64,000 nt of DNA. Source: Candidatus Norongarragalinales archaeon. GTDB taxonomy: Archaea > Micrarchaeota > Micrarchaeia > Norongarragalinales > Norongarragalinaceae. How positions within the stretch are numbered: the first letter of the stretch is position 1; the number at the start of each line of letters is the position of its first letter. Made by a program: the position numbers. The DNA lies in contig JAWABJ010000001.1 of the NCBI GenBank assembly GCA_038884755.1, positions 608,001 to 672,000 on the forward strand, written 5' to 3'. Below, piece by piece: positions 39,001-42,000 of this stretch.

Positions 39001-42000
39001 GTGGATGGCGTCGCCGATGAGGTTGAGCGTTGTGAAAGGGTGACGGTGGGTTTTGGAATGATGGTGGTGCCAGAACAAGATTTTTTCCAGGACGAAAAAC
39101 AGGACTACTCCGAGCAAGGCGTATTCAAGCGTGCCGCCCGCCTCCAGGGACTCTGGAAGTAAGTCAAGAAAAACAACTGCGAGCATTGTTCCTGCAGCAA
39201 AGCTCACAAACAAGCCCAAGTTCTTTTCCGCAGTCTTGCTGACAACGAAAACTATTCCAACCAAAGAAAGCACGCTGACGAGCAAAGTCGCAGCGATAAT
39301 TTCAAGCAAAACCAAAGCGTCCTACACCTTAAACTGCCAGTAATTAGAAGGCTAGACTGAAAATTAAAGAGTTTCGTTGTTTAAAAAAAATCAGCAGCGG
39401 TAATACCCGTAGTAGTCGTAGTAGCAGTTGTACTGGTATGGATAGTACGTGCCGTACGCAACGGGGTAGTAATAGTCGTAGTAACGCCCGCAGTTGTAGC
39501 CGTAACAACCGTAGTAATAGCCGTACGGATAGTAGAAATAGCCGTACGAATACTGGTAGGGGTAGCCGTAGTTGTAATTGTTGTAGTAATAGTTGTTGTA
39601 CTCGTAATAGTAATTGTGTGAAGCGCTTGCTAACGGGGCAAGGGAAAACGCCACCATCAAGCCCATTAGAACGCTCTTCAACTCCATCCTGCACGCCCCC
39701 TTTTCAATAAAACCCTGTCGCGCTTTCGCTTTAAAGCTTTTGCCGTTTTTTAAAGCCTCTTGAACAGCCCGTATTCTTTCGCCCAACAGCCGAAAACTAG
39801 TCCCGAGTCTACGAACCACAATGCCGGATGCACCACGTCTATCGCCTGCGGGCCGTACTCCGCGCCCACGGCTATAGTGAAAGCTACGCGGAGCAGGTTG
39901 AAGGTGAAAAAGAAGGCGAAGTAGCCGAGCATGCGCAAGTGTGGAATGCGGGTTTTAGTGGCGTAAAGCAGCGCGAAAAACAGGGCCATCATTACCAAGC
40001 CGCTGCAGTCCACGACTATTTCGAAAGCAGCATTTTCCACCACCAAGCTCGCTCCGTCTCTCAGCACGCCGTAGCCGGCGCTTGAAAGGAGGGACTCTTG
40101 CAGTTGGGCTACGAGCAGATTGACTGGCCTGGGCTCGGCAAGCTTGAGGAGTGCGAAAATCAACGAGAAAACGGTGGTGAAATAAAACAAAAAGTGCTTT
40201 TCTTTTTCCGACAGGGAGAAAAAAGGGCGTTTGGTTTTCCGTACGTCCATAACTTACCACGGCACTTTCTTCAACTGCATCTTGTGCGCAAGCCAATTGA
40301 AAAACAAGTGCAGGAAATAAGTCAAGACCAAAAGCCAAAGCACGTCCCACCCGTTCAACAGCTTGAAGACTACGGGTTGGGAGTATGCTATAAAAAGCAG
40401 GGCGACGACCAAAAACAACAACTGGTCGAGGAGAAAGTACTGCGATCCGGGTGCAAGACCCAAACGGCGTTTCACGAAACTGCCGAGCAAGTCTCCAGCC
40501 ATTGCTCCGGCAGAGGCGAAAAAGGCCAGGATAATCTTGTCTTCAACCGAAAACCACGGCATGAAAGGAAAGAGTAATGCCACGATCGCGCCGGCCAGCG
40601 TTCCCGCGACTATCCCGGAAACAAGACCGCGAACGGTTTTGGAATCGCCGAAAACGCGTTTTCCGTCGAAAAACTTCATTCCAAAATCAACTGTCGCACC
40701 GCCGCCGAAAACCACTGGCGCGCCGTTGGAAATGAAGGCTGGAAAGACCAAAAGCAAAAGTTCCACGAAATCCACGTTCAAAACCCCACGCGGGTGAAAG
40801 AATTTGTTTTAAGCAATGCTTTTAACCGTTCGTTTGAAAAAAATATTAATGACAGTCCAAGGTGACGACATAGTAAAATCGTGCAGGAACTGCTGGAACC
40901 AGCATTCTTTCGGCATCAGGCTTTCCGAAAGCAGGGGAATTCTGCACTGCCCCATCTGCCACCAAAAGTACGTGGTGGAAAAAGGGTTTTTGAAGACGGT
41001 TTGAAAGGGATTGCAAAATGGGTTGGCTCGTTTCCAAAAAAGACTTCGAGGTCGAAGACGAGCGCAAGCTCGAGCCGCTTTTCAAGGAAGCGGTGGAATA
41101 CGGCGCCGTTTTGAGCGTGCTGCACTTCGACGCCCACGCCAAGGAATCCAACGCGGTGAAAGACTCTCTGGTGGATTTCCTCTCGCGCCTGACCAAGGAA
41201 GAGGGAGTGTTGTACTGCAAGGGGGAAATCGAGGAAACGGTAGGAAGCGAGCAGGAAGGCTTTTCATCCACCGCCGAAGTCAAGATTCTCACGGACTCTT
41301 TCCCAACGCTCCTCCGCATTTCCATGCGCTACGGGCCGGTGGCGTTGGAAATCCTCGAGCCTCGGGAAATCAAGATGAACGTTCCCGAAATGCAGGATCT
41401 ATTGTTGAGCGCAAGCGAAATCTCCAAGCAATACGCGTCTTACGTAGTCGAAAAAATTTGGGGGAAGGAAGAGCTGGAGAAATACCGCGAGCGCGTGATG
41501 AGGCAGTTGGAAGAAGGAAGGAAGCTTCGCGAAAAGGCTGAAAAGGAATAGAATACGTTTTTCTATTGCTTGAACAATTCTTCAGCCACGACCCCGTAAG
41601 CCGGACGCGTCACCGCAATGCCCAAAATCACTCCGAGCATGGTTGCAACAGCAAAGCCCGTCACTTCGACTATTCCGCTGGAAAACAGGGGGAACATCGA
41701 AGCTATGGATATCCCCGCGGTGGTGAAAACAATGAAGAAAGCGCGGGAGAGCTTTTCCTTAGCCCCGACTTCGGCCTCGTTTTCCCTTCGCTTTCTCGAA
41801 AACTCGTCGGTAATCACGATTTGGTTGTCCACTCCCGTTCCTATTATCGCGATTACTCCAGCCATCGCGCTGAGGTCGAGCGTGCCGAAAGTGCCGAGTA
41901 TCGCGAGAAGCAAAACCAATTCTATTATGCTTGTCGCGACTATGGGCAGTATGAGTAAAAGCTTGCGGTAGCGTAGGGTGAGAAAGAGAGAAACGGCGAA

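What a model noticed while it worked through the whole genome (the two positions that open the first line are those of the whole stretch)
39750..40775. Minimal 166-aa archaeosortase-family protein locked to CDP-archaeol synthase
A 166-aa membrane protein with the exosortase/archaeosortase Cys-Arg-His signature (g00699) lies 3 nt downstream of CDP-archaeol synthase CarS (g00700), a pairing kept in 42 genomes of the order; a second mini copy (g00648) sits before two large secreted proteins. I read the mini enzyme as a stripped-down archaeosortase that hands C-terminally anchored surface proteins onto an archaeol lipid made on the spot by CarS. New would be the smallest working member of the family and a direct genomic link between protein lipid-anchoring and the CDP-archaeol step.
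Evidence so far: g00699 C1 647750-648250(-): Exosortase_EpsH 51 bits on model positions 102-232 of 254; TIGR04178 signature 36.5 bits; motifs VVDCSGL, NLLRVAF, VVHPALW. g00700 CarS-like 141 bits, full length. neighbours.tsv: Exosortase_EpsH next to CarS-like in 42 of 67 genomes of the order and 131 of 4025 genomes with both. g00648 (186 aa, TIGR04178 24.6 bits) precedes g00649 (510 aa) and g00650 (2356 aa). Thirteen unannotated or large proteins end in a hydrophobic helix plus a basic cluster (g00005, 60, 204, 240, 271, 355, 365, 382, 408, 637, 776, 916, 917). Search archaeosortase + CDP-archaeol synthase: 3 papers, none on this pairing by title or abstract.
(Added by a program. Inside this text positions count along the whole contig: contig position 608,001 is position 1 of the stretch shown here. 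"Call 12" and the like, gene names such as g00115 and contig names such as C1 are that model's own, and its searches are not shown. The text may have been shortened before it was handed on; [...] marks where a part breaks off. The agent that wrote the report below was given it as the finding of a first reader that could run no searches.)

Follow-up and report, generated by a model that had tools for sequence, protein, structure and literature searches.

The report
Small archaeosortase with new sorting tag
A group of tiny archaea keeps a small membrane enzyme, of a kind known to clip surface proteins and tie them to a lipid, right behind a lipid-synthesis gene; their surface proteins carry an uncatalogued tail tag that was lost together with the enzyme in one genus, and the lipid used is probably not the one used by the model archaeon.

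Summary
Real. The 166-aa protein is an exosortase/archaeosortase-family member (C82, R121, H141 invariant) 3 nt behind carS. The pair holds in 60 of 61 order genomes that have both genes, while the flanks shuffle, and in 41 of 46 loci of a sister clade whose named relatives are Iainarchaeota. It is not the smallest member: curated subfamily models of 150-168 positions exist. A gene link to lipid synthesis is also known (artA-pssA-pssD). I verified it in 60 of 62 genomes with the enzyme and 0 of 6 without; genus g26 lost enzyme and tag but kept carS and the second paralog. PssD is absent (0 of 68) and a PssA-like gene is present (63 of 68). The best model is cleavage at the tag and transfer onto archaetidylserine, with CarS two steps upstream; cleavage and lipidation are inferred, not shown. 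The scan noted this pair earlier on other DNA (Iainarchaeota and DUF92-linked loci), twice with a tail signal. New variant of a known kind; interest 0.47.

The parts
39750..40250 (-). Small archaeosortase-family enzyme ('A'), 166 aa, four long hydrophobic helices plus a short beta-sheet
   Evidence: Pfam PF09721 51.4 bits; TIGR04178 36.5 bits; AlphaFold2 mean pLDDT 94.3
40005..40007 (-). Cys82 codon, presumed nucleophile
   Evidence: Invariant in 33 of 33 rows and in 77 of 77 distant rows
39888..39890 (-). Arg121 codon (N-x-x-R motif)
   Evidence: Invariant
39828..39830 (-). His141 codon (H-x3-W-x2-D motif of this subfamily)
   Evidence: Invariant
40254..40775 (-). carS, CDP-archaeol synthase, 173 aa; its stop lies 3 nt before the ATG of A
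   Evidence: PF01864 141.3 bits; NF003114 168.9 bits, cut-off 148
40816..41551 (+). Divergent pair (62-aa Cys-rich ORF and 177-aa ORF of no family) upstream of carS; context kept in some relatives only
   Evidence: (no family for the 177-aa ORF)
41563..44249 (-). secD- and secF-like genes (label recognised from sequence, from no call); their homologs also lie next to the pair in the sister clade
   Evidence: ORFs; neighbours

Best explanation
A is the housekeeping sorting enzyme for a C-terminal tag, [VLTIF]-P-[ED]-x-[NHDS] + hydrophobic helix + Arg/Lys tail, found on one to about seven secreted proteins per genome of this Micrarchaeota order. Steps: (1) The cargo is secreted and held by its tail helix (inferred from the anatomy). 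(2) Cys82, helped by His141 and Arg121 near the outer face, cuts at the tag and forms a thioester (inferred from ArtA). (3) The amine of a membrane lipid resolves the thioester and leaves a lipid-anchored protein (inferred). As the order has a PssA-like synthase but no PssD, the amine donor is most likely archaetidylserine, made CarS -> CDP-archaeol -> PssA. The carS-A operon couples supply of the lipid precursor to the anchoring enzyme; it is not a direct hand-over. Shown: family, triad, operon, tag, co-distribution, PssA present and PssD absent. Not shown: cleavage, lipid attachment, identity of the lipid. My odds: A is the cognate enzyme 0.8; lipid anchoring 0.65; the serine lipid about 0.45.
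For: The tag is verified by reading the frames in 60 of 62 A-bearing genomes and 0 of 6 A-lacking ones; eight of the 60 were found by a model not trained on them. Genus g26 has carS in the ancestral context with no A behind it on continuous contigs (3 of 3 full loci). It keeps paralog B (E below 1e-44) and has no tag (0 of 4). Outside the order: no A ortholog in 292 genomes, no tag in 176 (8 weak hits, 7 starting after the motif and one a 69-codon frame), no PssA-like match at E<=1e-12 in 176. In G024 a gene carrying the tag sits between carS and A. The pair survives many flank changes and recurs in 41 of 46 sister-clade loci; the two clades group together (SH-aLRT 95, quick tree). PssD 0 of 68 with 7 of 14 controls ringing. 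The sole CDP-alcohol transferase of G000 scores best on pssA/archaetidylserine synthase models (99 bits, against 40 for the inositol enzyme and 34 for PgsA). ArtA needs PssA and PssD and sits beside them in Methanosarcina (PMC7157517).
Against: The co-loss rests on one evolutionary event (g26; two genomes above 90% complete). The other two A-lacking genomes (G012, G063; 80% and 73% complete) also lack carS and may only be unassembled there; G063 has one ambiguous frame with the motif but no basic tail. G001 and G015 have A but no tag was found. Paralog B is confined to the same order, so the order boundary does not choose between A and B. 50 of 88 cargo sequences fall in one BLAST component through a shared membrane-proximal domain, so the cargo is less independent than the count suggests. 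The PssA-like protein is below every curated cut-off and is kept in g26. carS, A and secD/secF-like genes also form an old gene block, which can hold neighbours together without function. No experiment exists for this clade.
Confidence: 0.65

Rival explanations
1. The carS-A adjacency is inherited gene order (an old secD/secF-carS-A block) with no functional coupling, even if A is a true sortase.
For: secD/secF-like genes lie beside the pair in G000, in several relatives and in 38 sister-clade loci. CarS is present without A in most of the phylum, and none of 8 carS loci from other orders has a sortase beside it. The enzyme that co-occurs with A, the PssA-like one, is not linked to it.
Against: Both flanks of the pair change many times within the order while the pair is kept. 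secD/secF lie upstream on the same strand in G000 but downstream and convergent in the sister clade, yet carS-A is unchanged. The artA-pssA-pssD precedent proved functional.
Confidence: 0.25
2. Paralog B (C1:598546-599106), alone or with A, processes the tag; A has another target.
For: B keeps Cys, Arg and His, matched in 66 of 68 genomes (one of these, G048, only by a cross-hit to A) and is confined to the order.
Against: g26 keeps B and has no tag. B lies beside pilus-type ATPase/TadC-like genes and a 510-aa protein with a pilin-like signal (labels recognised from sequence), which recalls ArtE, needed for DNA uptake in Methanococcus (PMC10133366, passages).
Confidence: 0.12
3. A cuts the tag but releases the protein or joins it to a non-lipid acceptor or to a host-derived lipid; no archaetidylserine anchor.
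For: PssD is absent and was required for cleavage in Haloferax. One-step transpeptidation is stated to be unproven for the family (bioRxiv 2023.06.07.544157, passages).
Against: The tight link to a lipid-activation gene, the shared range with the PssA-like gene, and GGGP-synthase-like and UbiA-like genes in G000.
Confidence: 0.18
4. One reading: CarS passes CDP-archaeol directly to A, which lipidates the cut protein.
For: 3-nt spacing and near-perfect adjacency.
Against: CDP-archaeol is an electrophilic donor made on the cytoplasmic side (own knowledge), while a Cys/His/Arg thioester needs a nucleophile. CarS is far more widespread than A.
Confidence: 0.05

Closest known systems
Archaeosortase A (ArtA, TIGR04125) / PGF-CTERM with PssA and PssD (Haloferax volcanii, Methanosarcina; PMC7157517)
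   Same: Same enzyme family and Cys nucleophile; tripartite C-terminal tag; sortase gene beside a phospholipid-synthesis gene; PssA-like enzyme present.
   Different: 166 aa against a 271-position model (15 bits, cut-off 75); the tag is P[ED]x[NHDS], not PGF; the neighbour is carS, not pssA/pssD; PssD is absent in 68 of 68.
Archaeosortase C (TIGR03762) / PEF-CTERM (TIGR03024), and bacterial PEP- and VPDSG-CTERM tags
   Same: The tag begins with a hydrophobic residue, Pro and an acid, directly before the helix; some members read IPEF, VPEF or VPDS.
   Different: Best tag score 15.6 bits against a cut-off of 23 (22 tags scanned); the enzyme scores 19.9 against 100 on ArtC, a 274-position model; position 3 varies (L, F, T, S, I) and position 4 is N, H, D or S.
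Small archaeosortases ArtB, ArtD, ArtE, ArtF and pacearchaeosortase (NCBIfam)
   Same: Same size class (150-167 positions) and same triad.
   Different: All far below cut-off (ArtE 27.5 of 95, ArtD 26.3 of 125). I found no report of a carS link in the papers searched. ArtE is tied to DNA uptake (PMC10133366).

Membership tests
Exosortase/archaeosortase family | Family models above the curated cut-off | tested here: met
   PF09721 51.4 vs 25.7; TIGR04178 36.5 vs 23
Exosortase/archaeosortase family | Cys-Arg-His triad (as stated in bioRxiv 2023.06.07.544157) | tested here: met
   C82, R121, H141 invariant in 33 rows
Exosortase/archaeosortase family | Multi-pass membrane protein | tested here: met
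   Four long hydrophobic helices in a model of pLDDT 94; that they span the membrane is inferred from the sequence
Exosortase/archaeosortase family | A cognate tripartite C-terminal signal in the same genomes | tested here: met
   60 of 62 genomes with A, 0 of 6 without
Exosortase/archaeosortase family | Cleavage of the signal and lipid attachment | not testable with these tools
   Needs proteomics or a reporter assay
ArtA / PGF-CTERM system | TIGR04125 cut-off and PGF motif | tested here: not met
   15 bits vs 75; no PGF before the helix among 30 C-terminal-helix proteins of G000
ArtA / PGF-CTERM system | PssD for archaetidylethanolamine | tested here: not met
   PF02666 in 0 of 68 genomes; rings in Haloferax, Methanosarcina and Methanocaldococcus controls
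ArtA / PGF-CTERM system | PssA (archaetidylserine synthase) | tested here: inconclusive
   Best hits are the serine-type models but all below cut-off (99.1 vs 107; 98.8 vs 240); homolog in 63 of 68
ArtC / PEF-CTERM system | TIGR03762 and TIGR03024 cut-offs | tested here: not met
   19.9 vs 100; best tag 15.6 vs 23 among 22 scanned
Small subfamilies ArtB/ArtD/ArtE/ArtF/pacearchaeosortase | Subfamily model cut-offs | tested here: not met
   ArtE 27.5 vs 95, ArtD 26.3 vs 125, ArtF 15.6 vs 150; ArtB and pacearchaeosortase not listed at E<=1

The most novel reading that the evidence does not exclude
An old sortase operon, shared by Iainarchaeota and one Micrarchaeota order, anchors tagged surface proteins through the amine of archaetidylserine itself, with no decarboxylase: a serine-linked protein-lipid anchor not found in the papers searched, run by a four-helix enzyme on an uncatalogued tag.
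Probability: 0.4. Interest if true: 0.68.

Novelty: new variant of a known kind. Interest (0 to 1): 0.47.

Why it matters
It gives a matched enzyme-tag pair for DPANN archaea, whose surfaces are little known, and a way to list their anchored surface proteins. It also makes an open question testable: whether archaeosortases are one-step transpeptidases and which amine they accept. A natural system with PssA but no PssD predicts that archaetidylserine suffices, whereas Haloferax needs PssD. A four-helix enzyme with a known tag is a convenient object for biochemistry and structure; no solved relative was found.

Tried and rejected
'Smallest member': rejected. The neighbours of paralog B as substrates: rejected, they have no C-terminal helix. 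Most helix-plus-basic-tail proteins of G000 as substrates: 27 of 30 lack the tag. Three first-round tag hits (G014, G015, G016) were false on reading and were dropped; real tags were later found in G014 and G016. Fold and sequence searches of solved structures gave nothing clear (best Z 7.5 among common helical bundles; no Foldseek match at E<=0.001); this does not show a new fold. The complex prediction of CarS with A returned no verdict and is not used either way. The promoter/terminator scan is bacterial in type and was uninformative. A loose DNA pattern for the tag matched thousands of places and was useless. Locus searches with diverse alignments could not run; the single-protein search returned one locus of A itself. 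The sister clade's genomes could not be searched for the tag, PssA or PssD, so these are untested there. No tag lay beside the pssA-like gene in 30 loci. Pfam named a domain in 2 of 16 proteins scanned (beta-propellers). The careful tree did not finish; only the quick tree is cited. Haft et al. 2012 is not held.

Full report
Observation. The window holds a 166-aa ORF at 39750-40250(-), 3 nt after the stop of a 173-aa ORF at 40254-40775(-). The first scores 51.4 bits on Pfam Exosortase_EpsH (positions 102-232 of 254) and 36.5 on TIGR04178; the second is CarS, above the NCBIfam cut-off. I call the enzyme A. A named relative is labelled Candidatus Micrarchaeota. The order is probably Norongarragalinales; this is my inference from its near-universal pssA (PMC12892359, passages), and no tool named it.

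Size. A is not unusually small. NCBIfam has subfamily models of 150 (ArtD, XrtM), 153 (ArtE), 155 (XrtS), 156 (ArtB), 158 (XrtH), 166 (ArtF), 167 (pacearchaeosortase) and 168 positions. A profile search found 211 relatives; the 150 listed are mostly 140-215 aa. A reaches none of the subfamily cut-offs, so it is an unnamed subfamily. C82, N118, R121, H141, W145 and D148 are invariant in 33 rows; Cys, Asn, Arg and His are invariant in 77 more distant rows. The model (pLDDT 94) has four long hydrophobic helices and a small sheet. By the positive-inside pattern the three triad residues lie toward the outer face (inference). No solved relative was found.

The pair. Of 68 order genomes, 62 have A and 65 have carS. 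Of the 61 with both, 60 have carS upstream of A on the same strand; two of these have one gene inserted (G024, G030). The 61st (G014) has the two genes at contig ends. The neighbours on both sides differ among 30 loci. In a phylum sample of 331, carS is in 318, but none of the 292 genomes outside the order has an A ortholog; 20 have weak hits in frames of 477-542 codons, two of which I read as large exosortases. Two genomes in that sample (G094, G241) are flagged unpublished; they enter only these phylum tallies. A DNA pattern built from the nearest outside clade gave 47 metagenome loci, 46 with the enzyme. In 41 of these carS lies directly upstream; the other 5 are cut by a contig end within 150 nt (41 clusters at 90% identity, 35 at 70%). 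Named relatives of that clade are Diapherotrites/Iainarchaeum; the loci themselves carry no taxon, and the pattern selects one subclade. In a quick tree of 126 rows, A (SH-aLRT 92) and this clade fall on one branch (95) apart from paralog B (midpoint root, every second row of the A alignment left out). The pair is therefore probably older than the order and was lost in other Micrarchaeota (inference).

The tag. A rough gene call of G000 (911 genes) gave 30 proteins with a lone C-terminal helix. Three end in [LV]PETD + helix + basic tail: C1:165402-167357, C1:168039-169817 and C1:435302-435817, all outside the window. Two rounds of profile search hit 55 of 68 genomes at E<=0.1. I fetched at least one hit for each and read the frames: 52 genomes had a true C-terminal signal, and 3 hits were false. 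A refined model of 67 signals, run on the 16 remaining genomes, added G011, G013, G014, G016, G020, G032, G061 and G065. The total is 60 of 62 genomes with A (not G001, G015) and 0 of 6 without (G012, G052-G055, G063). The consensus is [V>L,T,I,F]-P-[E,D]-[L,F,T,S]-[N,H,D,S], then about 17 hydrophobic residues, then R/K. None of 22 signals scanned reaches a curated CTERM cut-off; PEF-CTERM is nearest. Outside the order, 8 of 176 genomes had weak hits; 7 start after the motif and the eighth is a 69-codon frame. The cargo frames run from about 140 to over 1100 residues, and most complete ones start with a signal peptide; 88 fall in 16 BLAST components, the largest of 50.

Which enzyme? Both A and paralog B are core genes confined to the order. 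Genus g26 separates them. In G052, G053 and G055 carS lies in the same context as in G000 with no A behind it on continuous sequence. B is intact there and no tag is found even at E<=1. This is one event, and the other two A-lacking genomes may be assembly gaps. In G024 a secreted protein with the tag, fused to a pilin-like domain, is inserted between carS and A. B lies beside pilus-type genes (labels recognised from sequence), and the two proteins behind it lack a C-terminal helix.

Which lipid? In Haloferax, cleavage by ArtA is blocked without PssA or PssD, and the authors propose that the amine of archaetidylethanolamine resolves a Cys thioester; in Methanosarcina artA, pssA and pssD are clustered (PMC7157517: abstract, introduction, first results and discussion passages). 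Here PssD (PF02666) is in 0 of 68 genomes while the controls ring. G000 has one CDP-alcohol transferase, best matched by serine-type models though under their cut-offs. Its homologs are in 63 of 68 order genomes and in 0 of 176 outside at E<=1e-12 with a single-protein query. GGGP-synthase-like and UbiA-like genes are present. A, the tag and the PssA-like gene thus share one range while CarS does not. The only amine lipid this gene set predicts is archaetidylserine (inference). CDP-archaeol itself is an activated donor, not an acceptor (own knowledge), so CarS is best read as the upstream supplier.

Literature. Six full-text searches showed no paper on this pair or tag, judged by listings and abstracts. 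I read passages only of PMC12462473, PMC10133366, bioRxiv 2023.06.07.544157, PMC6098224, PMC12892359 and PMC8305020; PMC12892359 never uses the word sortase. Haft et al. 2012 is not held and is known to me only through these papers; it, its supplements, and model comments I could not see may already mention part of this. I opened no supplements. Earlier notes of this scan describe the pair in other genomes, one of them named Iainarchaeota and two with a tail signal. I saw them after my own tests, and only their short summaries.

Verdict. A real, old carS-sortase operon with its own uncatalogued sorting tag. It belongs to the exosortase/archaeosortase family and works like ArtA, but it is not an ArtA, ArtC or other named system, and it lacks PssD. 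New variant of a known kind; interest 0.47.

Noticed in passing
L008:2007-2906(+) (G024:C5, between carS and A): One reading frame joins a secreted protein ending in VPEFN-helix-RRRK to a pilin-like domain whose class III-type signal starts right at the basic tail; a prepilin peptidase cut would free both.
   Followed up: partly
G000 C1:598546-599106(+), outside the window (L034): Second small archaeosortase-family gene B, core to the order, C/R/H intact with its own H-D-x-L-F-R motif, often directly behind a TadC-like gene and before a 510-aa protein with a pilin-like signal; its target is unknown.
   Followed up: partly
G000 C1:352463-353605(-), C3:23755-28314(-), C3:37269-38864(-); also L179: Several C-terminal-helix proteins have a G-[LIT]-[TS]-G-L-F motif shortly before the helix: a possible second tag.
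   Followed up: no
window 39391-39687(-): 98-aa protein with a signal peptide and a Tyr/Asn/Gly/Cys-rich low-complexity body, directly downstream of A; no family and not seen in the other loci.
   Followed up: partly
window 32500-33060(+): CPBP/Rce1-type intramembrane protease with sub-cut-off hits to myxosortase-like models; a possible further processing enzyme.
   Followed up: partly
L203 (G001:C50:1-7000): G001 (87% complete) keeps a divergent A at the ancestral place, but carS is missing there, and no carS, PssA-like gene or tag was found in the genome.
   Followed up: partly
L300:1719-3323(+), L301:1480-3093(+): Other Micrarchaeota orders carry 510-540-aa exosortases with an intact triad and a large C-terminal domain, not beside carS.
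   Followed up: partly
L207-L253: In the sister clade the order is ribosomal genes, TIGR00297 (DUF92), often a signal peptide peptidase SppA on the other strand, carS, sortase, then convergent secD/secF-like genes.
   Followed up: partly
window 40816-41551(+): A 62-aa Cys-rich ORF and a 177-aa ORF of no family, kept between secD and carS in several families of the order.
   Followed up: no
L006:1040-1501(+) (G030): A hexapeptide-repeat, gamma-carbonic-anhydrase-like gene (label recognised from sequence) is inserted between carS and A.
   Followed up: no
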